Shown piece after piece: positions 1-17,369 of a DNA stretch of 51,237 bases. Position 1 is the stretch's first letter. The number at the start of each line of letters is the position of its first letter. A program made the translations under genes and the position numbers. The notes beneath the pieces were generated by a model. It was not told where the DNA came from and searched no databases. It saw only the letters and a program-made list of their open reading frames with translations. Origin of the DNA: an uncultured Desulfobulbia bacterium (GTDB lineage Bacteria > Desulfobacterota > Desulfobulbia > Desulfobulbales > CAZDYX01); the NCBI GenBank assembly GCA_964509775.1, contig CAZDYX010000001.1, positions 10,597-61,833 on the forward strand. Reading direction: 5' to 3'.

Positions 1-1770
1 AAAAAACCTAGAGAGTTATATGCCCGTACTCAAGCAACGGAATCACTTTTAGGAATTGAACCCTTTGTGGATAAGTTTCTTGATTCTGAAGAAAACCACA
101 AATACCTTGAAATGTTAGGGGTTGCCTTCACACCGTTAAGCCCTGAAAGCCTAATCGAAAGATTGCGAATTTTGAAAAACGCAACAGGTATCCCTAAAAG
201 GGAAATCGAAAATTGCTATCGTAGGCTAGATAGTTATATTCAAGAGGCATCAACTGAGGATCTTGAAATATTGAAGACTGCATTCGAAGTTGAAAAACTT
301 ATTCTTCATAATGCAGATGATTGGGTAAATTCCTCAGGGGTATTCCTTCATGCGAATGATGAAGATGCCCCCGGTGCACCATTGATTAGGGATTCTGTAA
401 AAGAACTAGCATTATGGGAAAGGTTAAGAATTCCAACCAGACCCGATTATGAATTCGTTATTAAATGGCTAGGAACGCTACCTAGCAACCAAAAATTAGA
501 TGAGTCAGACCTCAAACGAGTCTGCTCAATCTTGGCTAGGCATGGCTATAGGGTCATTGAAGAATGCAGGAGTGTACTTAACCTTATGGGAGAATGGGTA
601 CCTCTTGACAGCATTCAGTACTGGATTTCTAAATCCTTAGAGACTCCATTCAGCGATGATCTATACGCGGGTATAAGAAGAAAAACTGCGGACCTGCGTA
701 GTCTGCCAGAAGGATCTAAATTACCGTCCGGGCTTGAATCATGTCGATCGCTAATCGAAAAAATAGAAAACCGAATTCAACCTTCTATAGAAAGCATTGC
801 CGAAAAAGCAGTTGAGGTTTCTTGGATAACCACATGTGGGGGATTCCTTGAGAGGGTGATACTAAAAGACCTAGAAATGGTAAAAGAGGAGAATATCCTC
901 AACCTTGCGAAGAGGATGTCAAAGACACGAGTTGCTGAAGTGGATACGATTAAATCCACCCCCTACCTTAATGGAACTCCCGCTGGTTTGCAAAAGCAGA
1001 TGGAGGCTGTATGGATTAATGAAATCCTCTGTATAATAAGGATGAAGAATGCAAGAAAAGCAAAAGTTCTTCCGAGAGAACTTGGAAATACCTTCCAGAA
1101 TCAAGAAATAGTTGATGCAATTGTTTATTGCTGTGATAGAACAGAACAGACCATAAAGGACTACTTTGAGTCTAACTTCCAGTTAGATCCTGTGTCTGAT
1201 AACCAACCGGTGGAACGTCAGAAAGAACCAAAAAAAAACCAATCTGAAGATACTTCCTTTTGGAAAACACCAAATATAGAAGGAAATCCCATTGAATTAG
1301 CTACTGAACATGAAAATGAGGGTAACTCAACAAGTACAATAGAAAAGGAAGCTTCTGGTGTAGTTGAACATCATCCAGTTCATCCTGAACATAAAGCGGT
1401 TCCGCTCATCGAGCGATTTGCTAGAGCTCTTGGGTATATCAGGGAATCAGATCAAAAATATAAGCATCAAGACGGAAAATGCATTATTAAAAATTCTGAA
1501 TCTAGATTCCCATGGGAACTTGTAGATAAATCAGGAAATCACATAAAATCCTATTATCCTAAAGAGTGTTGCCTTCGTGCGGGATCTATCGAAATTCCGG
1601 CAGATGTATGGAATCTCCTTGAAGAAGACCCTATCCACTACTCCCTCATCCTAATAGAAGCAGATAGAACCCCATTCGAGTATACAGGAGAACTTCTCAT
1701 CAAGCTTAAGCAGAAAGGTGACATCACCCTATTCCCGGCTAGTTACAATATACTGGCTAATGATCGGTAA
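1..1770 (+). CDS. C-terminal ~590 aa of a large uncharacterised protein; the 5' end lies outside the window
   Basis: Frame 1 is open from nt 1, with no stop before the GTG at 67 used by the ORF track, so the gene is cut by the window edge. I recognised no catalytic motif. A charged low-complexity linker (..PVERQKEPKKNQSEDTS..ENEGNSTSTIEKE..) precedes a ~120-aa C-terminal module. Its layout only weakly recalls DUF3883/NOV-C-type ends of bacterial sacsin-like ATPases, which is speculative. The region is AT-rich compared with the methyltransferase downstream. Confidence 0.6.
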   Translation, partial: KKPRELYARTQATESLLGIEPFVDKFLDSEENHKYLEMLGVAFTPLSPESLIERLRILKNATGIPKREIENCYRRLDSYIQEASTEDLEILKTAFEVEKLILHNADDWVNSSGVFLHANDEDAPGAPLIRDSVKELALWERLRIPTRPDYEFVIKWLGTLPSNQKLDESDLKRVCSILARHGYRVIEECRSVLNLMGEWVPLDSIQYWISKSLETPFSDDLYAGIRRKTADLRSLPEGSKLPSGLESCRSLIEKIENRIQPSIESIAEKAVEVSWITTCGGFLERVILKDLEMVKEENILNLAKRMSKTRVAEVDTIKSTPYLNGTPAGLQKQMEAVWINEILCIIRMKNARKAKVLPRELGNTFQNQEIVDAIVYCCDRTEQTIKDYFESNFQLDPVSDNQPVERQKEPKKNQSEDTSFWKTPNIEGNPIELATEHENEGNSTSTIEKEASGVVEHHPVHPEHKAVPLIERFARALGYIRESDQKYKHQDGKCIIKNSESRFPWELVDKSGNHIKSYYPKECCLRAGSIEIPADVWNLLEEDPIHYSLILIEADRTPFEYTGELLIKLKQKGDITLFPASYNILANDR

Positions 1771-1785
1771 AATCGTTGGAGTTTT

Positions 1786-2595
1786 ATGAGTAATACGATT
1801 ACATCCGTAAACCCTTTTGAAGCAACGCTTCAATCTCTAGGACGTGCTTTCACAGTCCGAGATATCGCGACATATGACCTTATCACTTGTCGGGAAGATG
1901 ATTCCATCGATAAAGTATTAAAGATTCCTGACTATGAAGGGCTCGACTATATCCCTGTGAAGAATCAATTGGGAACGATTATCGGGATACTAGAGCGACC
2001 AAACATGGAATTAGCACCCACATCCGCTGGTTCGAAGATGCGACACTTAGACGACGAAATTCTAGCTTCAGCAGATACCTCATTGATACCCGCACTCGAA
2101 CGGCTTGTGAATACAGGATATCTACTTATATTGGACCAGTGCCGGGTTTCTGGAATAGTGACCAAGGCAGATATCCAGAAAATGCCTGTGGTTCTTCTAG
2201 CATTTACTTTTTTAGTACATATTGAATCTCTCATGGCGAATGCCATTACGTCGCGTTGTAAGAATGAACAGGAATGGATTGAGCTTCTTAGTAAAAAGAA
2301 TCAGCATCAACTAAAGCTTAACTATGATAGACAAGTTGGGTTAGGGTTTGATCTGCCGCGCATTGTTTTAACCGGATTCCTACAAAAAATGATACTCTTA
2401 ATCAAGTTATATAAATTGCCAATAGAGGATTCCATTGAATTGGATGAATTGAAGGAGTTGCGGAATCAAGTGGCTCATTCTCGATTTACCATACAGAACG
2501 ATGAAGATGTTCGACTGTTAGTAAAAAGAATAAACCTATCAAAGAAGTGGATCGATTTTATACCTGTTATGATTAATAAAGGATTAAGCTCATGA
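1786..2595 (+). CDS. CBS-pair domain protein with a C-terminal Swt1-like HEPN domain (R-x4-H motif)
   Basis: The N-terminal half has a CBS-like pattern ([37 protein letters not shown] and [18 protein letters not shown]). The C-terminus carries [12 protein letters not shown] (RNQVAH at nt 2461-2478), the HEPN Rx4-6H signature in the same context as the HEPN of the DUF499 protein. A GGAG-like RBS lies upstream, and the start is 15 nt after the preceding stop. Confidence 0.65.
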
Positions 2596-2822
2596 GTACT
2601 CCTAAAAAACTAATCGAAGTAGCCCTTCCTCTGGAAGCCATCAATAGTGCCAGCGCCAGCAAAAAATCAACCCACCGCAGTCATCCGAGCATTCTCTCTC
2701 TCATTGACAAAGCGGCTACTGGCGGCAGCACAGGCGGTAATCTTCGTGCAGATGGTTGACGATCCCTACTCATATCTCTGCCTTTTCCCGAGCAAGAATC
2801 CCAAGGGGAAGGAGCCGGTTTG
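2592..2822 (+). pseudogene. Frameshifted, truncated N-terminal remnant (~first 85 codons) of a second DUF1156 methyltransferase gene
   Basis: It translates as [33 protein letters not shown], then after a +1 shift ..[38 protein letters not shown]. This is collinear with the intact methyltransferase N-terminus [75 protein letters not shown]. Its ATG overlaps the CBS-HEPN stop (ATGA). Confidence 0.75.
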
Positions 2823-3785
2823 ATGAGTACTACTCATGTGTTATTCCCCAATCCCTCCAAGTTCATCAGCGCATTATGTGATCCTGGCAATCTTTTCATC
2901 CTTGGCGCTGGAGCCTCTTCAGAGTTTATGCCACCTGGCAACGCATTCTTACGGAATATTGGAACCCTCTGGATAAAGGGTGAAGGGTTCTCCCCCAGGT
3001 CCAGCATTTCAAAGATATCCAAGCGTCTTCTACAGAGCAGATGCTTCCAGGATGGACTGGATGCAGCACTTATCGGACTCATCCCGGACCGGGGAGCTGA
3101 GTGGATAGTGTCCTACTTGCTATCACCCTCTACGAAAGTCAAACCGTACTTAAGCTATGAAGTGTTTAAGAGAATAGCACGGCCTTTTACTATAGCTAAC
3201 TACAATCATGATGCGCTTGCTAGGCTTTCTCTTGGAGGTTTATCGGAGACCAGGATTCTGGAACCTCACGGTTCAACCTATCCCGGGCTTAAGGAACTTT
3301 TCGATGAAGTGGAAATACAGGAGTATGCCGATATGGATATTCCTGCACCCAATGCTGATAACTTCATCATGCTTAAGCCAGAACCGTCAATATTTGCACA
3401 CTCTCCATTCTTCAATCTACTCGATCGAACCAGAAGCCGAGTTCAGAATGTGATTTTTATCGGATACTCATTCAGCCTTCAGCAAGATGGTATAAGAGAT
3501 GACGCGGTTTCGTATGACTACTTCACCGACTACCTCCAAGGCAAGAGAACTTTTGTGGTTATGCCGGAGCCGCACAAACTGGTTGAAGAGTTGTCTGGAG
3601 AATTGCATACTCGAGACGTTTATGGTATTCCTCTCCGCTGGGATCTCTTTTCACAGGCAGTGTTCTCCAGCGAAGTGGTCTTTAGCCCTGTCACTCGTGC
3701 TACCTGTCTCGCTTCGATACCCAAACTAATATCGATCTACCAAGAGTTGCTAGAAACAGCCCAAAGCAGAGAAGGAATCAAATGA
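2823..3785 (+). CDS. Stand-alone SIR2-like (SIR2_2 / ThsA-DSR type) domain protein, ~320 aa
   Basis: LFILGAGAS (nt ~2914-2928) matches the glycine-rich NAD-binding start of SIR2_2 domains. ANYNHD (3198-3212) matches the TxNYD motif carrying the catalytic Asn. EPHGS (3261-3275) matches the catalytic His motif, and VIFIGYSFS matches the conserved GYS strand. The stop overlaps the methyltransferase start (ATGA at 3782-3785). The ORF track starts at TTG 2820; I prefer ATG 2823. Confidence 0.7.
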
Positions 3786-6694
3786 GTACTCAAAATACAT
3801 ACCCTAAGAAACTAATCGAAGTAGCCCTCCCCCTGGAAGCAATAAATATTGCCAGCGCCCGCGAGAAGTCTATCCGTCATGGTCACCCTAGTACCTTCCA
3901 TCTCTGGTGGGCTAGGCGACCTCTTGCGGCGGCCCGGGCAGTCATTTTCTCGCAAATGGTGGACGATCCTTCCTCGCATCCTGATCTGTTCCCCACTGAG
4001 AAGGCCCAAGAGAAGGAGCGCCAGCGTCTTTTCCGCATCATTGAGGACCTGGTGCTCTGGGAGAATACGACTAATGAAGAAGTCCTCCAGCGGGCACGGG
4101 ATGCGATCTGGGGAACCTGGCGCCGCACCTGCGCAGCGAATGCCGACCATCCGCGCGCCAAGGAATTATTCGACCGCAACAAGCTCCCGGCGTTCCACGA
4201 TCCCTTCGCAGGCGGTGGTGCCCTACCGCTTGAAGCCCAGCGTCTGGGCTTGGAGAGCTATGCAAGCGACCTGAACCCTGTGGCGGTCCTCATCAACAAG
4301 GCGATGATTGAGGTTCCTCCTAAGTTCGCCGGGAAGCCTCCAGTGAACCCTGAGACAAGGAAAAAGAAAGACTTGATCGAACGGGAGTGGAAGGGAGCAC
4401 AGGGCCTCGCCGAAGACGTCCGCTACTACGGCAAGTGGATGCGAAACGAAGCAGAAAAGCATATTGGCCATCTCTACCCCAAAATCGAGGTGACGGCGGA
4501 TATGGCCAAGAACCGGCCCGATCTCAGACCCTATGTCGGCAAGAAGCTCACTGTTATCGCATGGCTTTGGGCACGGACGGTAAAGAGCCCAAACCCTGCA
4601 TTCAGCACTGTCGATGTGCCCTTGGCTTCGACTTTCATGCTCTCGACAAAAGCGGGGAAGGAAGCGTATGTCGAGCCGGTGATCGAGGACACAGGCTATC
4701 GCTTCACTGTTAAGGTGGGGAAGCCAAAAGATGCCGAAGCAGCGAAGAGCGGGACTAAGTTATCACGCGGTGCGAATTTCCAATGCCTGATGTCCGGAAT
4801 CCCAATTCCGAGTGACCATATCTACAACGAGGCAAACGCCGGTAATATGGGTGCTCGGCTCATGGCGATTGTTGCAGAGGGCGATCGAGGTCGAGTTTAT
4901 CTCGCACCGACGGCGGAACATGAAGTTATCGCGTCGAAGGCAATGCCCGAGTGGAAACCTGAGGTAATGATGCCCGAGAATCCGCGCTGGTTCTCGCCAC
5001 CCCTCTATGGCCTCAAGACCTACGGTGACCTCTTCACTCCCCGCCAACTCGTGGCGCTGACAACCTTCTCAGACTTGGTGGGCGAAGCTCTTGAGCAGGT
5101 GAAACATGATGCCATCTCTGCCGGCTTGCCTGATGATGGTAAACCTCTGCGGGATGGAGGGACTGGGGCATCGGCCTATGCAGAAGCGGTGGGGGTGTAT
5201 CTAGCGTTTGCATTAAGCAAGCAAGCGGACCTTGGGAATAGCTTGTGTCGATGGGAGCCAATCGCGCAGTGCCCGCGTCAGCTTTTTGGTCGCCAAGCTA
5301 TACCGATGATATGGGACTTTGCTGAAGGCAATCCGCTTGGAGAGAGTTCAGGTGCATGGATTGTCTTTATTGATGGAATTGTAAAGGCTTTTTCAAAAAC
5401 GTTTGAGTTTATTTCATCATCGGCATATGGTTACTCACAACAAGCAGATGCTGGCCGACAAGAAATATCTAAAGGCAAAGTTGTATCAACTGACCCTCCG
5501 TATTACGATAACATTGGCTATGCAGACCTTTCGGATTTCTTCTACGTTTGGTTACGGCATACTCTAAAGCTAGTTTTTCCGGATCTCTTCACGACACTTG
5601 CGGTTCCAAAGGCTGAAGAATTGGTTGCCACGCCTTATCGACATGGAAGCAAAGAGAAGGCAGAAACCTTTTTTCTTGATGGAATGACACAGGCCATGCA
5701 TCGCCTTGCCGAGCAGGCGCACCCTGCGTTCCCAGTCACTATTTATTATGCCTTCAAGCAGTCTGAAAGCGATAGCCAAGATGGTACTTCGAGTACCGGC
5801 TGGGAGACTTTTCTTGACGCTGTTATTCGCGCTGGTTTCTCTATGACTGGCACTTGGCCGATTCGTACAGAAAATGACAGTCGTATGATTGGTCAAGGTA
5901 CCAATGCACTCGCCTCCAGTATCGTACTTGTCTCTCGTCAGCGTCCAACTGATGCACCTACCATCACACGCCGCGACTTCCTTTCTGCTCTCAAGACCGA
6001 ACTCCCTCCCGCCCTCGTAAAACTCCAGAAGGGTAATATCGCCCCAGTTGACCTCGCCCAATCTGCCATCGGTCCCGGCATGGCCGTCTTCACCCGCTAC
6101 GCTAAGGTCATCGACGCTTCAGGGAAGGCCCTTTCGGTCCGCGAAGCCCTTGCCCTCATAAACCAGACCCTCGACGAGGCCCTCTCCCAGCAGGAAGGCG
6201 ACTTCGACGCCGACAGCCGCTGGGCTCTCGCCTGGTTCGACCAGTTTGGCTTTGCCGAGGGAGAGTACGGCGTAGCTGAAACTCTCTCCAAGGCCAAGGA
6301 CACCTCGGTATACGGCATGGTGGAAGCGGGCATTCTCGTTTCGGGAAAGGGCAAGGTTCGGTTATTGAAGCCGGTGGAACTCGCCTCCAACTGGGATCCC
6401 ACAACCGATGCCCGCCTCACCAACTGGGAGACGGTTCACCAGCTCATCCGAGTACTGGAGGTTGGGGGCGAAGGTGATGCAGCCGAACTTGCGCGAAAGC
6501 TTGGCAGCAAGGCCGAGGCTGCACGGGAACTTTGCTATCGACTCTATACCCTCTGCGAACGAAAGAAGCGGGCACAGGAAGCCCTCTCCTATAACGGTCT
6601 TGTGCAGAGTTGGCCGGAGATCATGAGGCTGGCGACGGAGGGTGGGAAACTAAAAGCGAAGAGCGGAGAGTTGTTCGAGGATGCCGAGGAGTAA
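3782..6694 (+). CDS. DUF1156-family DNA methyltransferase (N6-adenine/N4-cytosine type), 970 aa
   Basis: The N-terminus [41 protein letters not shown] is characteristic of DUF1156. The SAM-binding motif I is [14 protein letters not shown] (nt 4199-4219). Catalytic motif IV is [23 protein letters not shown] (DPPY at nt 5492-5503). Confidence 0.9.
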
Positions 6695-6697
6695 GCT

Positions 6698-6820
6698 ATG
6701 CCAGAAGACAAGCGGTTTATATGCCTGGCAAATTCCAGGAAACGCAAGGGATTCTGCATTATAGGTATCGTTTTATTGGATGGCGCACCTGATGGATGGA
6801 TCCGACCAGTAAGCTCATGA
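6698..6820 (+). pseudogene. 40-codon N-terminal fragment of a dual-OB-domain-type protein
   Basis: MPEDKRFICLANSRKRKGFCIIGIVLLDGAPDGWIRPVSS* matches my recollection of the conserved start (..CLANSRK..G.C.AG......WIRPVS) of much longer proteins. Here it stops after 40 codons. Confidence 0.4.
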
Positions 6821-6975
6821 AACAACGGCAGATCGAGACATTTGTTGACTCTGAGATCATCCGCGACGGTTGCCTACTATGCAGCGAGGATGCTCCAACG
6901 CATTGCCATCGGAGACTCGTTGCCGAGTATCTCCAGGATGCGTGGAAGGACATCGATATTATTCACCTGAAGTGA
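6817..6975 (+). pseudogene. C-terminal fragment of a DUF488-family protein
   Basis: ..DGCLLCSEDAPTHCHRRLVAEYLQDAWKDIDIIHLK* matches the conserved DUF488 C-terminus (LLCxExxpxxCHRxlvaeyL...v.HL). The N-terminal two thirds of the family are absent. Confidence 0.55.
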
Positions 6976-6985
6976 GGCTAGCCCC

Positions 6986-7684
6986 ATGTCGAAACCTGGT
7001 ATAGAAGCACTGGACATGATAGGAAAAAGTGCTATTATTCCTATCATGGTAAAGAAAGAGGAATATCGACAAATCATTTCAAATAAAGTTATTAAGAGAG
7101 TGCATCATCTTGGTCGTGGTTCCGTATTTTCGGCAAGTAAATTCGCCGATATCGGCCCAGGGGCTGCGATCGACCTGATCCTTTCACGTCAAGCAAAGCG
7201 TGGTACGATCCGTCGCATTGCCCGGGGACTCTACGACTACCCTGTCAAGGATCCGGAGTTGGGACTGCTGAGCCCTTCTGTCGAGGCTATCGCGAAGGCA
7301 CTGTCTGAAGCCGGACGCCTGAAGCTTCAGCCATCGGGAGCGTATGCAGCCAATCTTCTTGGATTATCCGAGCAAGTGCCGATGAAAATCGTCTTTCTTA
7401 CCGACGGGGCTTCGAGAAAGGTCAAGGTTGGGAACCGCGAGATCATCCTCAAGCGAACCACCCCACGCAACATGGCCGCAGCGGGTCGCCTGGGCGGCCT
7501 TGTAATACAAGCCCTGCGATACCTTGGGCAAGATTCCGTCGATGCCGAAGTTGTCGCCAGGTTGAAACGAGCCGTTCCTCCTGAAAAACGTGCGGAGGTG
7601 GTCAAAGACTCCCTTTCGGCTCCAGTCTGGATTAGGACCCTCCTTTCCCAGGTTTTTGCGGAAAAAGGTGGGTCACATGGATGA
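6986..7684 (+). CDS. abiEi: AbiEi-family (DUF6088-like) type IV antitoxin / transcriptional regulator
   Basis: ..VFSASKFADIG..AIDLILSRQAKRGTIRRIARGLYDYP..LSPSVEAIAKAL..LQPSGAYAANLLGLSEQVPMKIVFLTDG is the typical AbiEi pattern. The gene is paired with an AbiEii gene through an 8-nt overlap. The start is uncertain (ATG 6986 with a GAGG RBS, or ATG 7046). Confidence 0.8.
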   Translation: MSKPGIEALDMIGKSAIIPIMVKKEEYRQIISNKVIKRVHHLGRGSVFSASKFADIGPGAAIDLILSRQAKRGTIRRIARGLYDYPVKDPELGLLSPSVEAIAKALSEAGRLKLQPSGAYAANLLGLSEQVPMKIVFLTDGASRKVKVGNREIILKRTTPRNMAAAGRLGGLVIQALRYLGQDSVDAEVVARLKRAVPPEKRAEVVKDSLSAPVWIRTLLSQVFAEKGGSHG

Positions 7685-8699
7685 ATTCCATGCGTTGCCT
7701 GAAGCGAGGCGTCAGATCATTTTTCAGGAAGCCGGAACTCGCCTCGGGTTGCCTGCCATTAGCATCGAGAAGGATTGGTGGGTAACCCGAGTCCTCGAAT
7801 CCCTCTTTTCGTCACAGGAAATAGCACCTCTTGTTACATTCAAGGGAGGCACTTCGCTTTCGAAGGCGTTCAACCTTATCAGAAGATTTTCTGAGGATAT
7901 TGATCTGGTGATAGATCGCAAAAGCCTGGCCATACCAGAAGATCAGGATCCTGAATCCGCACCATCTGGACGGAAGAGAAAACTCGGAGTGAAGCAGGTC
8001 AAGCATTCATGCGCGGCATGCATCAAGGACAGGATTCTGCCAACGCTGCGGGCGGATTTTGATCTGCATGGATTGTCTGATGCGACACAGATTGAAGTAG
8101 ACCCCCTTGATCCGGAACAGCACACGGTTCTGGTGCAGTATAAGAGTTTGTTCACATCAGGAGCAGGTAGATACACACGCCCAGCGGTAAAGGTGGAGTT
8201 GGAAGCCCGATCGGAAGATGAGCCTTCTCTGCAACGTGAGATCCAATCAATCGCAGCACAGGAATTTTCCGATGCCTCCTGGGCGCATGCAGTTTCCGTG
8301 AGAACCCTAGATCCAGCAAGAACTTTCATCGAAAAGGCGTGCCTGTTGCACGAAGAAAACATGCGACCACCTGATAAAAATATAAAGGTTGCTATGTCCC
8401 GGCATATTTACGATTTGCACTTGATGATGGATTCAGACTTTGGGAAACGTGCCTGTGTAGACCGGCCCTTGCTCGACAGGGTTTTAAAGAACCGACGGAT
8501 CTACTTCGAATATACATGGCTTGATTATGAAAAATTTGGCCCTGGTTACTTCAAGTTTGTACCTCCAGCAGATCGGATAGGTTTCTGGCGCGATGATTAT
8601 AGAAGCTTGTGTGAAAACATGGTTTTCGGCGAAGCTCCGGAATTTTCTGATTTGATGGATTCGCTTGCTGCGCTGGAAATTAAATTGAATAATAAATAG
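7677..8699 (+). CDS. abiEii: AbiEii/AbiGii-family nucleotidyltransferase toxin (DUF1814)
   Basis: IEKDWWVTRVLESLF...FKGGTSLSKAFNLIRRFSEDIDLVI is the hallmark N-terminal nucleotidyltransferase motif. I place the start at ATG 7677 (MDEFHALPE..), overlapping the abiEi stop, rather than the track start at 7590. Confidence 0.85.
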   Translation: MDEFHALPEARRQIIFQEAGTRLGLPAISIEKDWWVTRVLESLFSSQEIAPLVTFKGGTSLSKAFNLIRRFSEDIDLVIDRKSLAIPEDQDPESAPSGRKRKLGVKQVKHSCAACIKDRILPTLRADFDLHGLSDATQIEVDPLDPEQHTVLVQYKSLFTSGAGRYTRPAVKVELEARSEDEPSLQREIQSIAAQEFSDASWAHAVSVRTLDPARTFIEKACLLHEENMRPPDKNIKVAMSRHIYDLHLMMDSDFGKRACVDRPLLDRVLKNRRIYFEYTWLDYEKFGPGYFKFVPPADRIGFWRDDYRSLCENMVFGEAPEFSDLMDSLAALEIKLNNK

Positions 8700-8715
8700 G
8701 AAAACGAGGAAAAAA

Positions 8716-11700
8716 ATGGCAATTTCCAATTACGAACGTGTCGGAAAGTCGATGGAACTACTCAAGGCAGGCTTGGCTCCCTTCGCCGAACGGGAAGTCT
8801 TCGCCAGGCTCCGCACCATTGACGCCCAAGCTATGATTGAAGACTTCGCATCAGCTGACAGGATGCTGGCCGGCAAGGAGATGGCTGACTGGGATGTCCA
8901 GGCGCTTTTAAACTTCCTGTGGACACGCTGGAATGAAGTATTCAGCAGGACTCTCGGCAATGCTGAGCGCAGCCTTGTCAGTGAACTCCGGGAGCATCGT
9001 AACAGATGGGCCCATCAGGCGAACTTCTCAAGCGATGACGCTTATCGTGCCCTGGACTCTGTCGGGCGCCTCCTTACCGCAGTCTCTGCCCAAGAAGCTG
9101 ATGAGCTCGAGAAAATGAAGAACGAGCTCTTGCGGCTCCGTTTCGACGAGCAGGTGCGCAACGAGCGTCGCAAGGGCCTTAGCTCTACCATTGAAAGCGC
9201 GGTAACCGGCACCTTAAAGCCCTGGCGCGAAGTCGTGACGCCACATCGCGATGTGGCTTCTGGGAAATACCAGCAGGCTGAATTCGCGGCTGATCTGTGG
9301 CAGGTCCATCTGGGCGAGGGCTCCGATGAATATCGGAATCCTGCCGAATTCTTCAGAAGAACCTATCTCACCAACAGCCTCAAGGGGCTTCTGGTGAGCG
9401 CGATCCGGCGACTCACGGGCTCAGGCGGGGATCCTGTCGTCCAGCTTCAGACCAACTTTGGCGGTGGCAAAACGCACTCCATGCTTGCCCTTTATCACCT
9501 TTTCTCCGGGGTGAGTCCCGTTGATCTCATCGGGGTAGACGAAGTGCTGAAAGAGGCTGCTGTCTCGAACGTACCGAAGGCCCGCCGCGTCGTGCTGGTT
9601 GGCAACAAGATCTCTCCGGGCAATCCTTCCACCAAGATCGACGGAACGGTCGTGCGCACACTCTGGGGAGAGCTTGCCTGGCAGCTTGGTGGCAAGAAAG
9701 CTTTCTCCCGCATCGAAGCCGATGATAAAAATGCAACGAGCCCCGGAGACGTCCTTCGTGAACTATTCAACGAGTACGGGCCTTGTCTCATCCTTATCGA
9801 TGAGTGGGTTGCGTACGCCCGTCAGCTCCACGACCAGGGTGATCTGCCGGCAGGTGACTTCGAAACGCATTTCAGCTTTGCCCAGGTACTCACGGAGTCC
9901 GCCAAGCTGGCTAAAAACTGCCTCCTCGTAATAAGCCTTCCGGCATCAGATGATTCAGGCTCCCCCCATACCCTCGCCGATGATGCCGAAGTCGGTGGAC
10001 AGCGCGGCCGGGAAGCCTTGGTTCGGTTGCGCAATGTCATCGGCCGTGTCGAGTCTTCGTGGCGGCCTGCGAGCGCAGAAGAAGGCTTCGAAATAGTCCG
10101 TAGGCGGCTTTTCGAGCCTCTGAACGATGCAGCCCACTTCAAGGATCGCGACATCATCGCCCGGGCTTTTTCCAGCTTCTACCAGAGCCAGCAACAGGAA
10201 TTCCCTCCAGAAAGCCGCGATGCAGATTACGAAAAGCGCATCAAGGCAGCCTATCCCATCCATCCTGAGATCTTCGACCGCCTCTATACCGACTGGTCCA
10301 CGCTGCTCAAATTCCAGCGTACGCGGGGCGTACTGCGCCTCATGGCTGCGGTCATCCATAGCCTCTGGGAAAAAGGCGACAAGAACCCGCTTATCATGCC
10401 CGCCAACATCGCCATCGATGATGCCCGAGTCCAATTCGAAATGACGCGTTATCTCTCCGACAACTGGGTGCCCATCATTGAGAAGGATGTGGACGGCCCC
10501 GGGTCCCTTCCCCTGCGCATCGACGCCGAAGTGCCAAACCTTGGCAAGTTTGCCGCTGCACGGCGCGTGGCGCGTACCATTTATCTCGGCTCCGCACCCA
10601 CCGCCGACGCAGCCCATCATGGTATCGAAGATCGCCGCATCAAGCTCGGCTGCGTCATGCCCGGCGAGTCGCCGGCAGTATTCGGCGATGCGCTCAGGCG
10701 CCTTTCAGGCGCTGCCACCTACCTGTACCAGGATGGTTCCCATTTCTGGTATTCTACCCAGCCGACGGTCACAAAGCTTGCAGAGGACAGGGCAGAGCAA
10801 CTCAAGCGTGAACCGGACAAGGTCATCCAGGAACTAGACAGCAGGCTGCGGATTGATCTCAAGCAGAAGGGTGACTTCGAACGCATCCATCCTTTCCCGC
10901 ATGGCGGTCAGGATGTCCCCGATGACAGGGATACGAGGCTTGTAGTCCTAAGTGTCGATCATCCGTACATCAGAGATTCGGACAACGCAGCCGAAGCCGA
11001 AGCTCGAAAGATTCTCGAATACCGCGGCACATCGCCACGGCTGTACCGTAACAACCTCGTGTTCCTCGCTGCCGACAAGAACCGCCTCCAGGATCTCGAT
11101 GAGGCAACCCGCAGATTCCTTGCATGGTCTTCTATCCTTGCGGAGAAGGATCAGCTGGACTTGAGTCCCTATCAGGTTAAGCAGGCGGAACAGCAGTTGA
11201 AGACTGCCGACACTACCGTAACAGTACGGCTGCCGGAGACCTATCAATGGATTCTTGTCCCCGGCCAGACTACCCCGCAGGCTCCTGTCGAGTGGCATGC
11301 GATCAAGGTTTCAGGGTCCGAGCCTCTCGCCGTCCGTGCCTGCAAGAAGCTAAAAAGCGAAGAGTTCCTCATCATCAATTTTGCGCCTACGAGATTGCGG
11401 ATGGAATTGGATCGCATTCCCCTTTGGCGCGGGAATGATGTGTCGGTGAAGCAGCTCTCAGAAGACTTCGCCCGGTACCTATACCTGCCAAGGCTCCTGA
11501 CATCCTACACCTTGGCAAAGAGCATCGGGGATGGATTAGGTCTTCTGATGTGGGAACAGGACTCCTTCGCCTGGGCTGATGAATGGGACCAGGCAGCGCG
11601 AAGGTATCGAGGCTTGCGTTCCGGTTCGAATTTGATCTGTCCTGACCCTGATTCGACTGGCCTTCTAGTTAAGCCTGAGGTTGCCCTGAAACAGATGGAA

Positions 11701-12240
11701 CAGGAAACAAAACCCGTCAGGATCGAACTCAGCCCCGAGCGGATCGAACTTTTACCATCCGCTACCATTCACTTCACCTTGAAGGGTTTTGACGCGGATG
11801 GACGCCCCGTTCAGGTATCGAAGGCTTCCTGGTCGGCGACTGGTGGCCAGATCGATGCATCCGGGCTTTTTACTGCAGGAGATGCGTTCGGGCAGTTCAC
11901 AGTCGATGTGGAAATCTTCGGACTGCATACTCGTTCGATCGTCTCGATCCATGATTTGGCACGACCGCCGATTCCGGAAAAACCCTTGATACCTGAGACT
12001 CCACGCCTCAAGCGATTCCACGGTACCGTAGTGCTCAATACCGAACGTGTCGGCCGGGATGCAGGACGCATCGCCGAGGAAATCATCTCACATCTTGCCA
12101 TCCAGGCAGGAGCAAAGATAACCGTCACTCTTGAGATAGATGCCGAATTACCATCCGGTGCCGGTGATTCTCTCATGAGAACAGTGACTGAAAATGCCCG
12201 TACCCTGCATTTTAGCAATCAGGGGTTTGAGAGGGAGTAG
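8716..12240 (+). CDS. Swt1-like HEPN + DUF499 (BrxC/PglY-like) P-loop ATPase with a C-terminal Ig-like (Big_2-type) segment, 1174 aa
   Basis: The N-terminal HEPN is SELREHRNRWAHQANFSSDDAYRALDSVGRLL (RNRWAH at nt 8998-9015). Walker A is NFGGGKTHS (GGGKT at nt 9460-9474) and Walker B is CLILIDEW, both typical of DUF499. Near the C-terminus, IELSPERIELLPSATIHFTLKGFDADGRPVQVSKASWSATGGQIDASGLFTAG resembles bacterial Ig-like Big_2 domains. Confidence 0.85.
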   Translation: MAISNYERVGKSMELLKAGLAPFAEREVFARLRTIDAQAMIEDFASADRMLAGKEMADWDVQALLNFLWTRWNEVFSRTLGNAERSLVSELREHRNRWAHQANFSSDDAYRALDSVGRLLTAVSAQEADELEKMKNELLRLRFDEQVRNERRKGLSSTIESAVTGTLKPWREVVTPHRDVASGKYQQAEFAADLWQVHLGEGSDEYRNPAEFFRRTYLTNSLKGLLVSAIRRLTGSGGDPVVQLQTNFGGGKTHSMLALYHLFSGVSPVDLIGVDEVLKEAAVSNVPKARRVVLVGNKISPGNPSTKIDGTVVRTLWGELAWQLGGKKAFSRIEADDKNATSPGDVLRELFNEYGPCLILIDEWVAYARQLHDQGDLPAGDFETHFSFAQVLTESAKLAKNCLLVISLPASDDSGSPHTLADDAEVGGQRGREALVRLRNVIGRVESSWRPASAEEGFEIVRRRLFEPLNDAAHFKDRDIIARAFSSFYQSQQQEFPPESRDADYEKRIKAAYPIHPEIFDRLYTDWSTLLKFQRTRGVLRLMAAVIHSLWEKGDKNPLIMPANIAIDDARVQFEMTRYLSDNWVPIIEKDVDGPGSLPLRIDAEVPNLGKFAAARRVARTIYLGSAPTADAAHHGIEDRRIKLGCVMPGESPAVFGDALRRLSGAATYLYQDGSHFWYSTQPTVTKLAEDRAEQLKREPDKVIQELDSRLRIDLKQKGDFERIHPFPHGGQDVPDDRDTRLVVLSVDHPYIRDSDNAAEAEARKILEYRGTSPRLYRNNLVFLAADKNRLQDLDEATRRFLAWSSILAEKDQLDLSPYQVKQAEQQLKTADTTVTVRLPETYQWILVPGQTTPQAPVEWHAIKVSGSEPLAVRACKKLKSEEFLIINFAPTRLRMELDRIPLWRGNDVSVKQLSEDFARYLYLPRLLTSYTLAKSIGDGLGLLMWEQDSFAWADEWDQAARRYRGLRSGSNLICPDPDSTGLLVKPEVALKQMEQETKPVRIELSPERIELLPSATIHFTLKGFDADGRPVQVSKASWSATGGQIDASGLFTAGDAFGQFTVDVEIFGLHTRSIVSIHDLARPPIPEKPLIPETPRLKRFHGTVVLNTERVGRDAGRIAEEIISHLAIQAGAKITVTLEIDAELPSGAGDSLMRTVTENARTLHFSNQGFERE

Positions 12241-12273
12241 GGATATAAGAGCGATATTGATAGGTTGTAAGCG

Positions 12274-12438: not shown

Positions 12439-12519
12439 GCAGCCTGATAGGGTTTCCCTGATGGTCTTGCATTCCAAATTGCGAAAATCCTTGGACATGA
12501 TCGTAAAAAAGGTAGGATT

Positions 12520-12852
12520 ATGGTTGTTCAGATGGAATTAGAGAGGATTCTTTGGAAGTTCATCAAAGAGTATTCGTATATGTTCAACGACCCCTATATT
12601 CTGGAATACATTAAGAAAAATCGTGAAAGGTATGTTGAATATCCAGCCCATGTTCTTGGGGATTATCTCTTCAAAGATGAGGTCCAGGCAACAAAAATCA
12701 GAGATTATTTTTCTAGCTGGATACTGGATTACTTTGAACGGCAAGAAAATTTTTCTAGGCTCCTCGATCGCCTTGAAAAGAAAGACAAACCCTTTAATGA
12801 AAACGATTTTGAGATTCTTCCAGACACTTCGTTTTTAGATGAGGAAGACTAG
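12520..12852 (+). CDS. Hypothetical protein, 110 aa, AT-rich, acidic C-terminus
   Basis: The ORF has an upstream purine-rich RBS (AAAGGTAGG). I recognised no family. Its stop (TAG) overlaps the GTG of the next ORF by 1 nt. Confidence 0.45.
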   Translation: MVVQMELERILWKFIKEYSYMFNDPYILEYIKKNRERYVEYPAHVLGDYLFKDEVQATKIRDYFSSWILDYFERQENFSRLLDRLEKKDKPFNENDFEILPDTSFLDEED

Positions 12853-13136
12853 TGGAGAATAATGGCAAACCAACCCAAGAATACCTTCAAAAAAAGCTTG
12901 AAGCGAAGATAAATGAGCCAGTAATTTTCTTCGATGTTTTTACTGAAAAAGAAAAGCCATCGCAATGGACTATCTATAATTTCAACACGTCATATCTGAT
13001 AGAAAAAGAGAAATACACAGTGATCCTATTTATCCCAAAGAGCGATGAGTGCTTTCTCTGCTCTACACGTTTTGCCGTGTTCGAAGATGCCAAAGACGCC
13101 TATATATTAATCACTTCATGCAATGATGAAGGCTGA
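12852..13136 (+). CDS. Hypothetical protein, 94 aa, AT-rich
   Basis: It is coupled to the preceding ORF (TAGTG overlap). I recognised no family. An internal ATG at 12863 is an alternative start. Confidence 0.4.
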   Translation: MENNGKPTQEYLQKKLEAKINEPVIFFDVFTEKEKPSQWTIYNFNTSYLIEKEKYTVILFIPKSDECFLCSTRFAVFEDAKDAYILITSCNDEG

Positions 13137-13530
13137 CATTAGAACATGAGAACGCCTATGTTTTAAGTCAAGTATTATGAGCCCAAGGCGCAACTTCCCC
13201 AGATAGCCAGGATGATCACAGACCTAGTCTCGTCGGGGTACGAGGATAACGTTGACGTAAACAATCATTATGAGGGCTCCGCGCCGGCGACTATCGAACA
13301 GCTAAAAGGATTTACTCTCACATCCTCCTAAACAGACCAATGATAGTCAGATTCTTACGAGGGAAAGTCACACAAAAAGTCACACTTTTTAGCTTTTATC
13401 GCCTGATTCTCGATGATACGAAATGAGCTTGATAAGTCGGTTAAAACCAGATATCATAGTTACATAAACTCACGATTTGATTCGTCGTGAAATCGGATGA
13501 TTTGGGCAACGGTAAGCTTCCCAAGCTCGA

Positions 13531-13560
13531 GAAGCGGGTTCGACTCCCGTCGGTCGCTCT
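13531..13560 (+). other. tRNA/tmRNA 3'-end-like fragment (T-arm plus 3' acceptor strand); possible att-site remnant
   Basis: GCGGG-TTCGACT-CCCGT has the canonical T-stem/T-loop form (GTTCGAnTC), followed by the 7-nt strand CGGTCGC. No complementary 5' acceptor strand (GCGACCG) or D/anticodon arms occur in the 80 nt upstream, so this is not an intact tRNA. Confidence 0.35.
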
Positions 13561-17275: not shown

Positions 17276-17369
17276 CTGGAAAGAAGGAATAATGGGAACG
17301 GCAGGCAATATTTGACATGTTGATCCTGCCTTCCTGTACTCCTGTCGAATTCTCTTATAAGGATGGGTT

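What the first reader, a model, noticed from the sequence alone, without database searches (positions are those of the whole stretch)
2823..12240. Stand-alone SIR2 gene coupled to a DUF1156 methyltransferase and a HEPN-DUF499 ATPase: candidate undescribed SIR2-armed, methylation-linked defence system
Seen in the sequence:
- A 320-aa protein carries the SIR2_2 landmarks (GAGAS, NYNHD, PHGS, GYS).
- It ends in an ATGA overlap with the start of an intact 970-aa DUF1156 methyltransferase (FAGGG and DPPY motifs present).
- Downstream on the same strand is a 1174-aa protein with a Swt1-type HEPN (RNRWAH), DUF499 Walker A/B motifs and an Ig-like tail.

Established knowledge:
- SIR2 domains are NAD+-depleting effectors in Thoeris (ThsA), DSR1/DSR2, SIR2-HerA and SIR2-associated short pAgo systems.
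- DUF499 is the BrxC/PglY-type ATPase of BREX.
- DUF1156 + DUF499 gene pairs were flagged as an R-M/BREX-like module in comparative analyses of defence islands. There they are usually accompanied by a helicase, nuclease or DUF3780 gene.

Inference:
- No helicase, DUF3780 or nuclease gene is present here.
- The SIR2 gene sits in the effector position and is translationally coupled to the modification enzyme.
- That suggests a variant in which methylation-based self-marking (methyltransferase), sensing or translocation (HEPN-DUF499) and NAD+ depletion (SIR2) are combined.
- I do not know of a described system with this gene content.
Basis: partly seen in the sequence, partly recalled or inferred. 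Interest (0 to 1): 0.85.

Follow-up and report, generated by a model that had tools for sequence, protein, structure and literature searches.

The report
SIR2-like gene embedded in Hma system
The methyltransferase and ATPase belong to an already named phage-defence system (Hma), which often carries extra defence genes, and one of those here is a small SIR2-like protein from a family that the profile libraries searched do not cover.

Summary
The three genes exist as described.

- **Known system.** The 970-aa DUF1156 methyltransferase and the 1174-aa HEPN-DUF499 ATPase are full-length HmaB and HmaC. They belong to the Hma system, also called the Type-1 BREX-related system.
- **SIR2 call.** The 320-aa protein matches no Pfam, NCBIfam or PADLOC model. 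A 117-sequence alignment gives a confident AlphaFold model (pLDDT 94.9), and all 50 listed PDB matches are SIR2 proteins such as ThsA, DSR2, sirtuins and SIR2-HerA. The GAGxS motif is 90% or more conserved, and Asn128 and His149 are invariant. It is a divergent SIR2-fold protein.
- **The helicase is probably cut off, not absent.** The leftmost ORF runs off the window. Its homologues are the C-terminal part of ~1390-aa proteins that directly follow hmaA in four loci and lie just downstream of it in two more. All three relatives of this locus with enough upstream sequence carry hmaA.
- **The SIR2-like gene is rare.** None of 80 close hmaB loci has it. It occurs patchily in one Hma subclade.
- **The ATGA overlap is not specific.** Other inserted genes overlap the hmaB start in the same way.

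About 63-67% of Hma loci are known to hold embedded defence genes. Best reading: this is an Hma locus with embedded cargo (AbiE, a CBS protein, the SIR2-like gene). The SIR2-like protein is a candidate NAD+-consuming effector. Whether it works together with Hma is unproven.

The parts
1..1770 (+). C-terminal ~590 codons of a large embedded gene, with the ORF open at the left edge of the window. Homologues are ~1390-aa proteins with an N-terminal GHKL/HATPase_c_3-like domain.
   Evidence: Frame 1 has no stop codon from base 1. Homologues (25-39% identity) lie between hmaA and hmaB in L031, L054, L069, L091, L099 and L103. In four of these the gene starts 4 bp inside the hmaA stop. Weak HATPase_c_3 and sacsin hits fall at their N-termini. 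The fragment itself has no Pfam or PDB hit, and no homologue was found in the word-indexed search.
1786..2595 (+). 269-aa protein with a CBS domain and a weak HEPN (RiboL-PSP-like) C-terminus; a recurrent Hma-embedded gene.
   Evidence: CBS E 1.6e-7; HEPN_RiboL-PSP E 0.005, below cut-off. Weak hit to NCBIfam DS11_antiphage. It is 35% identical to the CBS protein at the same position in L009. Homologues lie directly upstream of hmaB in L084 and L101.
2592..2822 (+). Frameshifted remnant of the first ~77 codons of an hmaB gene (DUF1156 N-terminus).
   Evidence: Two reading frames together spell [18 protein letters not shown]... and ...[15 protein letters not shown], which match the intact hmaB N-terminus. 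In L009 it is an intact 77-aa ORF with a DUF1156 hit. The window copy has a 2-bp deletion. It is 75% identical to L009, against 99% for the adjacent gene.
2823..3785 (+). 320-aa divergent SIR2-fold protein (called X in this report), the claimed 'SIR2'.
   Evidence: No Pfam, NCBIfam or PADLOC hit. The family has 351 representative clusters. N128, H149 and G214 are invariant and GAGxS is 90% or more conserved across 117 sequences. AlphaFold2 pLDDT is 94.9. All 50 listed Foldseek PDB hits are SIR2 proteins, best E 1e-4, TM 0.37-0.47. The family profile against PDB sequences hits only SIR2 proteins, weakly. dN/dS against L009 is 0.20, from only 10 substitutions.
3782..6694 (+). HmaB: DUF1156 N6-adenine DNA methyltransferase, 970 aa, apparently intact.
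   Evidence: PADLOC HmaB 1583 bits over model positions 4-961 of 967. DUF1156 and MethyltransfD12 hits. FAGGG and DPPY motifs present. The variable region at about 4400-5200 is 67-85% identical to L009, while the flanks are 90-99%.
6698..6975 (+). Decayed fragments of an earlier embedded cassette: a DuOB N-terminus (6698-6820) and a DUF488 C-terminus (6827-6975).
   Evidence: DuOB PF22557 E 1e-9 and DUF488 PF04343 E 5e-6 on the translated fragments.
6986..7684 (+). AbiEi antitoxin (DUF6088), embedded between hmaB and hmaC.
   Evidence: PADLOC AbiEi E 3e-67. DUF6088 E 4e-46.
7677..8699 (+). AbiEii nucleotidyltransferase toxin. The start is placed at the ATG at 7677 by analogy with the 339-aa gene call in L009; the longest ORF starts at 7590.
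   Evidence: PADLOC AbiEii E 1e-89. Pfam AbiEii E 1.5e-28. L009 gene call. ATG at 7677.
8716..12240 (+). HmaC: DUF499 ATPase of 1174 aa with an N-terminal Swt1-type HEPN domain.
   Evidence: HEPN_Swt1 over residues 11-124, E 4e-32, and DUF499 E 5e-32. PADLOC HmaC 1137 bits over residues 166-1002. RNRWAH, GGGKTHS and LILIDEW motifs present. The C-terminal 175 aa have no Pfam hit.
12520..13136 (+). Two small abutting ORFs (110 and 94 aa) that travel with the block; function unknown.
   Evidence: 99-100% identical in L009. Homology with L009 ends at about 13306. Only sub-threshold family hits.
13372..13560 (.). Element of ~175 nt ending in a sequence that resembles the 3' half of a tRNA; a possible boundary of the island.
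   Evidence: The same element, reverse-complemented, lies at the left end of L001 and L003, upstream of hmaA. The sequence was read. No complete tRNA gene and no Rfam hit.

Best explanation
The region is an Hma locus, also called the Type-1 DUF499-centred BREX-related restriction-modification-like system. It is filled with embedded cargo genes. One of these is a small SIR2-fold protein from a family that Pfam, NCBIfam and PADLOC do not cover.

**Shown**
- HmaB (DUF1156 methyltransferase) and the HEPN-fused HmaC (DUF499 ATPase) are intact.
- An AbiEi/AbiEii pair, next to decayed DuOB and DUF488 fragments, sits between them.
- Upstream of hmaB lie, in order: the C-terminal part of a large GHKL-like protein, a CBS/HEPN-like protein, a frameshifted hmaB 5' remnant, and the SIR2-like gene.
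- Among the loci compared, the SIR2-like gene next to hmaB was found only within one Hma subclade, and it is patchy there.

**Inferred**
- The helicase-nuclease HmaA lies about 2.4 kb beyond the left edge of the window.
- HmaB methylates host DNA. HmaC senses unmodified invader DNA and HmaA nicks or cuts it. The HEPN domain serves as a back-up RNase. This part is the literature model.
- The SIR2-like protein binds NAD+ through GAGxS, Asn128, Asp130 and His149. It consumes NAD+ as an abortive-infection effector.
- It most likely acts as an independent embedded defence gene that was acquired once and is co-inherited with hmaB. A role as a subunit of Hma is less likely.
For: **Hma identity**
- PADLOC HmaB 1583 bits and HmaC 1137 bits, with matching Pfam domains.
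- The literature definitions of Hma and the Type-1 BR system agree (PMC11232893; PMC12839542).

**Embedding is the norm for Hma**
- 62.7% of 1485 Hma systems carry embedded genes (10.1101/2024.01.29.577857); 66.5% in PMC11232893.
- Here, 42 of 53 hmaA-hmaB gaps exceed 600 bp.
- Cargo next to X in relatives belongs to known defence families: SoFic in L018 and AbiD in L001. The X-less sister locus L044 carries AbiL.

**hmaA is present in relatives and expected upstream of the window**
- L009, which is 94% identical in DNA, holds the C-terminal 514 aa of HmaA (NOV_C).
- L018 has full HmaA at 1640 bits. L001 has a 1195-aa Snf2/NOV_C protein.
- The left-edge ORF is open. Its homologues lie between hmaA and hmaB in six loci and directly follow hmaA in four of them.

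**SIR2 fold**
- pLDDT 94.9.
- Foldseek hits are all SIR2 proteins.
- The family profile hits only SIR2 chains in PDB, aligned at GAGxS, NxD, HG and GYSF.
- Three of 117 family members hit PADLOC SIR2 models and three hit Aga_SIR2 models.
- N128 and H149 are invariant.

**X behaves as cargo rather than a core gene**
- X is absent from all 80 close hmaB loci; 68 of them have more than 1.2 kb upstream of hmaB.
- In the HmaB tree, X-bearing loci share a subclade with the X-less loci L029, L030 and L044.
- Four of the six distant family members found in genomes (L019, L021, L022, L024) are stand-alone genes with no shared neighbourhood. In L023 the gene follows a sigma-54 activator on the same strand, and in L020 it appears disrupted.
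- The 4-bp overlap with hmaB is shared by other cargo genes.
Against: - X abuts hmaB with a 4-8 bp overlap in all five lineages where it occurs, across divergence down to 50% identity. New cargo always lies upstream of X, never between X and hmaB. This is compatible with a dedicated partnership.
- The closest outgroup of X (29% identity) is coupled to a large DSR1-C-terminus-like protein. At least some family members therefore work with a partner.
- X has no sensor domain of its own, so how a solitary copy would be triggered is unknown.
- NADase activity is inferred only from the fold and the conserved residues. TM-scores to solved SIR2 structures are modest (0.37-0.47), and sequence E-values to PDB SIR2 proteins are weak (0.02 to 2).
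- hmaA upstream of the window is an inference, not an observation.
- The HmaB tree is a quick neighbour-joining tree without support values.
Confidence: 0.72

Rival explanations
1. X is a dedicated accessory subunit of this Hma subclade. It coexists with HmaA. HmaC or HmaB would act as its sensor and release its NADase activity as a second, abortive layer, in parallel with the fused HEPN domain.
For: - X always lies immediately upstream of hmaB with overlapping codons, in five lineages with X identity from 50 to 99%.
- Purifying selection is indicated (dN/dS 0.20, from only 10 substitutions).
- The closest outgroup clade is a two-gene unit with a DSR1-C-like partner, so the family can work as a separate effector subunit.
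- The Hma-linked clade has its own C-terminal tail and loop insertions compared with the rest of the family.
- The BREX-related literature proposes back-up suicide effectors embedded in these systems (PMC12839542).
Against: - Absent from 80 of 80 close hmaB loci.
- Patchy within its own subclade.
- The overlap with hmaB is generic for cargo genes.
- Most distant family members are solitary.
- There is no co-variation or interaction evidence.
Confidence: 0.2
2. One reading: a new three-part system in which SIR2 replaces the helicase/nuclease effector and combines with methylation (DUF1156) and sensing (HEPN-DUF499).
For: - No HmaA, DUF3780 or stand-alone nuclease gene lies anywhere in the 51-kb window.
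- X is adjacent to hmaB and overlaps it.
Against: - The locus is truncated by the window edge.
- All X-bearing relatives with enough upstream sequence carry hmaA (L009, L018, L001; L013 shows its C-terminus).
- The left-edge ORF belongs to a gene that lies just downstream of hmaA in six loci.
- The gene pair is the already named HmaB/HmaC.
Confidence: 0.05
3. X is a SIR2-fold enzyme or binding protein that does not deplete NAD+. It could be a protein deacylase, an ADP-ribosyltransferase acting on a host or phage target, or a nucleotide-binding regulator of HmaB.
For: - The conserved Asn/His pair and GAGxS are shared by deacylating sirtuins and ADP-ribosylating SIR2 proteins as well as NADases. 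Sirtuins (SIRT2, SIRT3, SIRT5, Hst2) are among the hits.
- Some distant family members sit in contexts that are not obviously defensive, for example next to a sigma-54 activator and HpaB, or MoxR and VWA genes.
Against: - The best structural matches are the defence NADases ThsA and DSR2.
- Family members hit PADLOC defence SIR2 and pAgo-associated SIR2 models.
- No conserved cysteines stand out, so a sirtuin-type zinc module appears to be lacking.
- X is embedded in a defence locus among known abortive-infection genes.
Confidence: 0.1

Closest known systems
Hma system (HmaA/HmaB/HmaC; PADLOC), also called the Type-1 DUF499-centred BREX-related (BR) system
   Same: - HmaB (DUF1156 N6-adenine methyltransferase) and HmaC (DUF499 ATPase) match the PADLOC models over nearly their full length.
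- The HEPN_Swt1 fusion on the ATPase is the common variant, reported in 1370 taxa (PMC12839542).
- Same strand and same gene order as in relatives that carry hmaA.
   Different: - hmaA is not inside the window.
- The SIR2-like gene upstream of hmaB is not mentioned in the main text of any of the three Hma/BR papers consulted. Their supplementary tables were not searched.
Hma-embedded defence genes ('guilt by embedding', HEC-01 to HEC-09; Payne et al., bioRxiv 2024)
   Same: - Independent defence genes are nested between hma genes on the same strand. Known systems such as Septu, AbiE-type toxin-antitoxin pairs and GmrSD-like genes occur this way.
- Here AbiE sits between hmaB and hmaC, and relatives carry SoFic, AbiD and AbiL.
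- X occupies this kind of position.
   Different: - X matches none of the PADLOC v2 models, HEC and PDC candidates included.
- X is far rarer than the shortlisted HEC families. Only seven clusters at 90% identity were found in the word-indexed search.
- No SIR2-type HEC candidate is described in that paper.
Defence-associated SIR2 NADases: ThsA (Thoeris), DSR1/DSR2, SIR2-HerA, SIR2-APAZ/pAgo
   Same: - SIR2 fold with GAGxS, a catalytic Asn in an N-x-D motif, an HG histidine and a GYSF strand motif.
- Best structural hits are ThsA and DSR2.
- A few family members hit PADLOC SIR2 and Aga_SIR2 models.
- No sirtuin zinc module is apparent.
   Different: - X is only 320 aa. It has no SLOG domain, no DSR-type C-terminal sensor, no HerA partner and no pAgo/APAZ partner.
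- It is not detected by Pfam SIR2_2.
- TM-scores are only 0.37-0.47.
DSR1 (defence-associated sirtuin 1)
   Same: In the closest outgroup clade (L005, L006, L016), an X-like gene is 4-bp-coupled to a 1137-aa protein. That protein matches the non-SIR2 part of the PADLOC Dsr1 model (positions 719-1009, E 3e-16). The arrangement looks like a DSR1 split into a sensor gene and a SIR2 gene.
   Different: No DSR1-like partner is present in the window. The link comes from a relative with 29% identity and from a single HMM hit.
MADS (methylation-associated defence system, mad1-mad8)
   Same: It is also a defence system that distinguishes self from non-self by methylation.
   Different: MADS is an eight-gene operon with different components. 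PADLOC-DB contains mad models (a mad3 model appears), and none is hit by the window proteins.

Membership tests
Hma / Type-1 BR system | DUF1156 N6-adenine methyltransferase (HmaB) | tested here: met
   PADLOC HmaB 1583 bits, model positions 4-961 of 967. DUF1156 E 7e-31. FAGGG and DPPY present.
Hma / Type-1 BR system | DUF499 AAA+/STAND-like ATPase (HmaC), often with an N-terminal HEPN domain | tested here: met
   PADLOC HmaC 1137 bits. DUF499 and HEPN_Swt1 hits. Walker A/B and RNRWAH present.
Hma / Type-1 BR system | Snf2 helicase with a C-terminal NOV_C/PD-(D/E)xK nuclease (HmaA) on the same strand, upstream | tested here: inconclusive
   No HmaA homologue in the window by tblastn. The locus is cut by the window edge. 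HmaA is present in relatives L009, L018 and L001. It also lies just upstream of homologues of the left-edge ORF in six loci.
Hma / Type-1 BR system | Adenine methylation of host DNA and restriction of unmethylated DNA | not testable with these tools
   Needs a methylome analysis and phage or plasmid challenge.
SIR2 superfamily | Rossmann-type SIR2 fold | tested here: met
   AlphaFold2 pLDDT 94.9, pTM 0.92. All 50 listed Foldseek PDB hits are SIR2 proteins, best E 1e-4, probability 0.98-1.00, TM 0.37-0.47.
SIR2 superfamily | NAD-binding GAGxS loop plus catalytic Asn and His | tested here: met
   N128 and H149 are invariant; G28, A29, G30, S32 and D130 are at least 90% conserved in 117 sequences. 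These positions align with sirtuin-5 QNID/HGS and with TTNYD/HGS of 8yhx.
SIR2 superfamily | NAD+ hydrolysis or NAD+-dependent catalysis | not testable with these tools
   Requires a biochemical assay.
   No Pfam hit for X at E<=10. No Pfam hit for any of 117 family members at E<=0.01.
Thoeris | ThsA with a SLOG or other sensor domain, plus a TIR protein ThsB | tested here: not met
   X is 320 aa and consists of the SIR2 domain only. No Thoeris model was hit in PADLOC, and there is no TIR or SLOG Pfam hit among the genes at 67-13136.
DSR1/DSR2 | Single polypeptide of about 1000 aa or more with an N-terminal SIR2 domain and a C-terminal sensor region | tested here: not met
   X is 320 aa and has no PADLOC Dsr hit. 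Only a distant relative pairs with a separate DSR1-C-like protein.
SIR2-HerA / SIR2-pAgo | Adjacent HerA ATPase, or a short pAgo with an APAZ domain | tested here: not met
   No such Pfam or PADLOC hits among the neighbouring genes.
MADS | mad1-mad8 operon, with mad6-8 mandatory | tested here: not met
   No mad models were hit by the nine proteins at 67-13136. Gene content as given in 10.1101/2023.03.30.534895.
Canonical BREX | PglZ, BrxA, BrxB, BrxC and PglX | tested here: not met
   The only PglZ hit is a spurious 14-bit match on the CBS protein. The ATPase scores as HmaC/DUF499, not BrxC.
AbiE toxin-antitoxin | AbiEi antitoxin plus AbiEii nucleotidyltransferase toxin, overlapping genes | tested here: met
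   PADLOC AbiEi E 3e-67 and AbiEii E 1e-89. Matching Pfam hits.
Hma-embedded gene (positional class) | Located between hma genes on the same strand | tested here: met
   The order hmaA - cargo - X - hmaB is seen in L018, L001 and L009. In the window, AbiE lies between hmaB and hmaC.

The most novel reading that the evidence does not exclude
X would represent a family of sensor-less, plug-in SIR2 effector subunits that unrelated sensors can recruit. Two recruiting partners are suggested. One is a DSR1-C-terminus-like protein in the closest outgroup clade. The other, in this Hma subclade, is the methylation-reading HmaB/HmaC machinery. Under this reading, detection of unmethylated DNA would trigger NAD+ depletion in addition to HmaA nicking and HEPN RNase activity. 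That would be a methylation-gated NADase arm of a BREX-related system.
Probability: 0.17. Interest if true: 0.65.

Novelty: new member of a known kind. Interest (0 to 1): 0.33.

Why it matters
- **It removes a false lead.** The DUF1156 + HEPN-DUF499 pair is not a new system. It is Hma (the Type-1 BREX-related system) with its well-documented embedded cargo. The 'missing helicase' is most likely an effect of the window edge.
- **A modest new finding remains.** The small SIR2-fold protein belongs to a family of about 350 clusters at 50% identity. The family has no Pfam, NCBIfam or PADLOC model, and it keeps the NAD-binding and catalytic residues.
- **It has two informative contexts.** One is embedding in an Hma subclade. 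The other is coupling to a DSR1-C-like protein in a related clade.
- **It is worth testing.** Seven of nine tested Hma-embedded candidates gave phage defence (10.1101/2024.01.29.577857). By that 'guilt by embedding' logic X is a reasonable candidate for a new SIR2-type defence gene. The split-DSR1 arrangement could also help define how SIR2 effectors are coupled to sensors.
- **The locus shows how cargo turns over in Hma.** Evidence includes the hmaB 5' remnant, the DuOB and DUF488 fragments, and the diverged variable region of HmaB.

Tried and rejected
**Searches that found nothing or failed**
- Pfam at E<=10, NCBIfam and PADLOC on X gave no hits.
- The profile of the 7 close homologues against PDB returned only chance hits such as PUF4.
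- AlphaFold2 with that shallow alignment gave pLDDT 50 and was unusable. The 117-sequence alignment fixed this.
The 7-sequence alignment worked.
- tblastn of X against plasmids and phages found nothing.
- BFVD gave only two weak hits. One of them is a Marseillevirus Sir2 protein.
- Attempts to recover the DNA upstream of the window failed. An exact look-up of the CBS protein found only a 2.9-kb contig. HmaB is not on record. A homologue search with the left-edge ORF found nothing at E<=1e-5. Its relatives surfaced only through tblastn on the fetched hmaB loci.
- No tRNA or Rfam hit in the region.
- No PDB sequence hit for the DSR1-C-like partner or for the left-edge ORF.

**Ideas considered and rejected**
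- MADS identity: different gene content, and no mad model was hit.
- Thoeris, DSR, SIR2-HerA or pAgo membership: the required partners and domains are absent.
- The ATGA overlap as evidence of functional coupling: it is generic at the hmaB start.
- The hmaB 5' fragment as a functional leader peptide: it is frameshifted here and diverging faster than its neighbours.

Full report
**1. What is in the sequence**

All genes discussed lie on the + strand. The ORF map and Pfam, PADLOC and NCBIfam scans give this order:

| Coordinates | Feature |
|---|---|
| 1-1770 | ORF with no Pfam hit |
| 1786-2595 | 269-aa protein: CBS domain plus a weak HEPN RiboL-PSP-like C-terminus |
| 2823-3785 | 320-aa protein, called X below; the finding's 'SIR2' |
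| 3782-6694 | 970-aa DUF1156 methyltransferase |
| 6986-7684 | AbiEi |
| 7677-8699 | AbiEii |
| 8716-12240 | 1174-aa HEPN_Swt1 + DUF499 protein |
| 12520-13136 | two small ORFs |

- The ATGA overlap between X and the methyltransferase is real.
- GC content rises from 0.40 left of about 2600 to about 0.53 across 3000-12000.

**2. The methyltransferase and ATPase are a named system**

- PADLOC scores the methyltransferase as HmaB: 1583 bits over model positions 4-961 of 967.
- PADLOC scores the ATPase as HmaC: 1137 bits.
- Hma (helicase HmaA, methylase HmaB, ATPase HmaC) was defined by PADLOC, and its helicase was studied experimentally in Halomonas (PMC11232893).
- A 2026 comparative study renames it the Type-1 DUF499-centred BREX-related system. 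It reports the N-terminal HEPN fusion on the ATPase in 1370 taxa, and it treats the Snf2-REase helicase as the primary effector (PMC12839542).
No mad model is hit here.

**3. Is X a SIR2 protein?**

Direct HMM tests fail:
- No Pfam hit even at E<=10, and no NCBIfam or PADLOC hit.
- A word-indexed search finds only seven clusters.

Deeper tests succeed:
- An exhaustive profile search finds 351 representative clusters, nearly all stand-alone proteins of 300-350 aa.
- In a 117-sequence alignment N128, H149 and G214 are invariant. G28, A29, G30, S32, Y112, D130, G150, E187, Y215, F217, D227 and W273 are at least 90% conserved.
- None of the 117 members hits Pfam.
- Three members hit PADLOC SIR2 models (best E 4e-5) and three hit pAgo-associated SIR2 models.
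- The family profile searched against PDB sequences returns only SIR2 proteins: 8yhx at E 0.02, and sirtuin-5 and a bacterial deacylase at E 1-2.
- Those alignments fall at GAGxS, N-x-D, HG and GYSF.
- AlphaFold2 with the shallow alignment was useless (pLDDT 50). With the deep alignment it gives pLDDT 94.9 and pTM 0.92.
- All 50 listed Foldseek PDB matches are SIR2-domain proteins: ThsA, DSR2, SIRT1/2/3, Hst2 and SIR2-HerA. The best E is 1e-4, probability is 0.98-1.00, and TM is 0.37-0.47.

X is therefore a divergent SIR2-superfamily protein with the NAD-binding and catalytic residues intact. It is not a detectable member of Pfam SIR2_2.
- It has no extra sensor domain.
- No conserved cysteines stand out in the alignment, so a sirtuin-type zinc module appears to be absent.
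- Against its 99%-identical relative, dN/dS is 0.20, from only 10 substitutions.

**4. Genomic context of X in other sequences**

X lies immediately upstream of a DUF1156 gene, with a 4-8 bp overlap, in five lineages:

| Locus | X identity to window | Gene order |
|---|---|---|
| window / L009 | 99% | see below |
| L015 | 71% | Fic fragment - X - DUF1156 |
| L013 / L014 | 51% | Fic - X - DUF1156 (L013 also shows the HmaA C-terminus upstream) |
| L018 (Spirochaetes MAG) | 52% | HmaA - SoFic - X - HmaB - GmrSD-like (HEC-05) gene - HmaC |
| L001 | 50% | HmaA - AbiD - X - HmaB - HmaC |

Sources.

- L009 is 94% identical in DNA to window 2602-13306.
- Its order is: HmaA C-terminus (NOV_C) - DEAD helicase (844 aa) - 162-aa protein - CBS protein - 77-aa hmaB fragment - X - HmaB - AbiEi - AbiEii - HmaC.
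- Every X-bearing relative with enough upstream sequence therefore also carries hmaA.

**5. The 'missing' helicase**

- No HmaA homologue lies in the window.
- The reading frame of the leftmost ORF is open from base 1.
- In six hmaB loci, homologues of that ORF are the C-terminal ~570 aa of ~1390-aa proteins with a weak N-terminal GHKL/HATPase_c_3-like domain.
- Four of these start 4 bp inside the hmaA stop codon (L054, L069, L091, L099). L031 and L103 are similar.
- By inference, hmaA lies about 2.4 kb beyond the left edge of the window.

**6. Is X part of Hma, or cargo?**

I fetched 80 metagenomic loci whose HmaB N-terminus is 79-94% identical to the window's.

- None contains X or any of 60 X-family members at E<=1e-6. 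Sixty-eight of them have more than 1.2 kb of sequence upstream of hmaB.
- HmaA is upstream in 56 of them.
- The hmaA-hmaB gap ranges from 15 bp to 8.4 kb, and 42 of 53 gaps exceed 600 bp.
- This matches published figures: 62.7% of 1485 Hma systems, and 66.5% in a second study, carry embedded genes. Many are independent defence systems, and seven of nine tested candidates were active.
- In a neighbour-joining tree of HmaB, built without its variable region, the X-bearing loci fall in one subclade. That subclade also holds the X-less loci L029, L030 and L044.
- L029, L030 and L044 show no X remnant. L044 carries AbiL and L029 a DEAD helicase; the cargo in L030 was not identified.
- In L029 and L044 the cargo gene overlaps the hmaB start by 4 bp, as X does. 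The ATGA overlap is therefore not evidence of a special partnership.
- Four of the six more distant X-family members found in genomes (L019, L021, L022, L024) are stand-alone genes in unrelated neighbourhoods. Examples are a serine recombinase in L019 and MoxR/VWA genes in L022.
- In L023 the gene follows a sigma-54 activator on the same strand. In L020 it appears disrupted.

One observation points the other way. The closest outgroup clade (29% identity; L005, L006, L016) is 4-bp-coupled downstream of a 1137-aa protein.
- That protein has no SIR2 domain.
- It matches positions 719-1009 of the PADLOC Dsr1 model at E 3e-16.
- The pair looks like a DSR1 split into a sensor gene and a SIR2 gene, so X-type proteins can act as separate effector subunits.

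**7. Signs of cargo turnover**

- *hmaB remnant.* Directly before X lies a remnant of the first 77 codons of an hmaB gene (2592-2822). It is frameshifted by a 2-bp deletion relative to the intact small ORF in L009. It is only 75% identical to L009, while X next to it is 99%.
- *CBS protein.* CBS-protein homologues sit directly upstream of intact hmaB in L084 and L101. The ancestral junction was therefore probably CBS-hmaB. An X-hmaB segment from another Hma locus then replaced the body of that gene.
- *Cassette fragments.* Between hmaB and abiEi lie fragments of a DuOB gene and a DUF488 gene.
- *HmaB variable region.* The HmaB region at about 4400-5200 is 67-85% identical between the window and L009, with flanks at 90-99%. 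This may reflect an exchange of target specificity.
- *Block end.* Shared homology with L009 ends near 13306. At 13372-13560 a ~175-nt element ends in a sequence like the 3' half of a tRNA. The same element recurs, inverted, at the left flank of the L001 Hma locus. It may mark an island boundary.

**8. Most likely mechanism**

- *From the literature (not tested here):* HmaB methylates adenines in host DNA. HmaC senses unmodified DNA. HmaA nicks or cleaves it. The fused HEPN domain is a back-up RNase.
- *Inferred here:* X binds NAD+ and consumes it as an abortive-infection effector. It most probably acts as an independently functioning embedded gene (about 0.55 within the accepted framework). 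A role as a dedicated accessory of this Hma subclade is less probable (about 0.2).
- AbiE and the CBS/HEPN-like gene would add further independent layers.
- NADase activity, the trigger for X and any contact with HmaB or HmaC remain untested.

**9. Novelty and score**

- The system is already known, and so is the architecture of Hma with embedded defences.
- What is new is a small family of SIR2-fold proteins with no model in Pfam, NCBIfam or PADLOC, and its occurrence in one Hma subclade.
- The main text of the Hma, BR and embedded-defence papers I read does not mention SIR2 in this context. Their supplementary tables were not searched.
- I rate it a new member of a known kind, with interest 0.33.

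Noticed in passing
window 2592-2822: Frameshifted remnant of the first ~77 codons of an hmaB (DUF1156) gene, directly before the SIR2-like gene. It is an intact 77-aa ORF in L009. It is only 75% identical between the two loci, while the adjacent gene is 99% identical. This suggests cassette exchange anchored on the conserved hmaB 5' end.
   Followed up: yes
window 6698-6975: The 'intergenic' stretch between hmaB and abiEi encodes two gene fragments: a 40-aa DuOB (PF22557) N-terminus and a 52-aa DUF488 C-terminus. They are probably remains of an earlier embedded cassette.
   Followed up: partly
window 1-1770; L031, L054, L069, L091, L099, L103: The leftmost ORF runs off the window. Its homologues are the C-terminal part of ~1390-aa proteins with a weak N-terminal GHKL/HATPase_c_3/sacsin-like domain. 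They recur as cargo between hmaA and hmaB, and four of six directly follow hmaA. Their function is unknown.
   Followed up: partly
window 1786-2595; L009 4649-5521; L084 1254-2027; L101 2623-3420: A CBS-domain protein of about 260-290 aa with a HEPN-like C-terminus recurs immediately upstream of hmaB. Its upstream neighbour differs each time: the GHKL-like giant here, a DEAD helicase plus a 162-aa protein in L009, and a dynamin-like GTPase in L101. It is only weakly similar to NCBIfam DS11_antiphage.
   Followed up: partly
window 4400-5200 (within hmaB): This central part of HmaB is 67-85% identical to L009, while the flanks are 90-99%. The pattern may mean the target-recognition region was exchanged and the methylation specificity changed.
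   Followed up: no
window 13372-13560; L001/L003 1-175 (reverse complement): A conserved element of ~175 nt ends in GCGGGTTCGACTCCCGTCGGTCGCTC, which resembles the T-arm and acceptor 3' half of a tRNA. It flanks two different Hma loci, on opposite sides. No complete tRNA gene and no Rfam hit were found. It may be an attachment site or island boundary.
   Followed up: partly
L005 5530-9917 (also L006, L016, L017): A distant X-like SIR2 gene (29% identity) is 4-bp-coupled downstream of a 1137-aa protein. That protein matches only the non-SIR2 part of the PADLOC Dsr1 model and has no SIR2 Pfam hit. The pair looks like a DSR1 split into two genes.
   Followed up: partly
window 12520-13136: Two abutting small ORFs (110 and 94 aa) are 99-100% conserved with L009 at the right end of the shared block. 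Only sub-threshold hits were found (MazE/PemI-like, E 0.02). They could be a small toxin-antitoxin pair.
   Followed up: no
window 17000-20000: Strongly skewed base composition (AT skew 0.26-0.31, GC skew down to -0.18) over a 747-aa protein with UvrA-like and ABC ATPase domains. A DUF6671 gene lies just upstream at 16005-16865.
   Followed up: no
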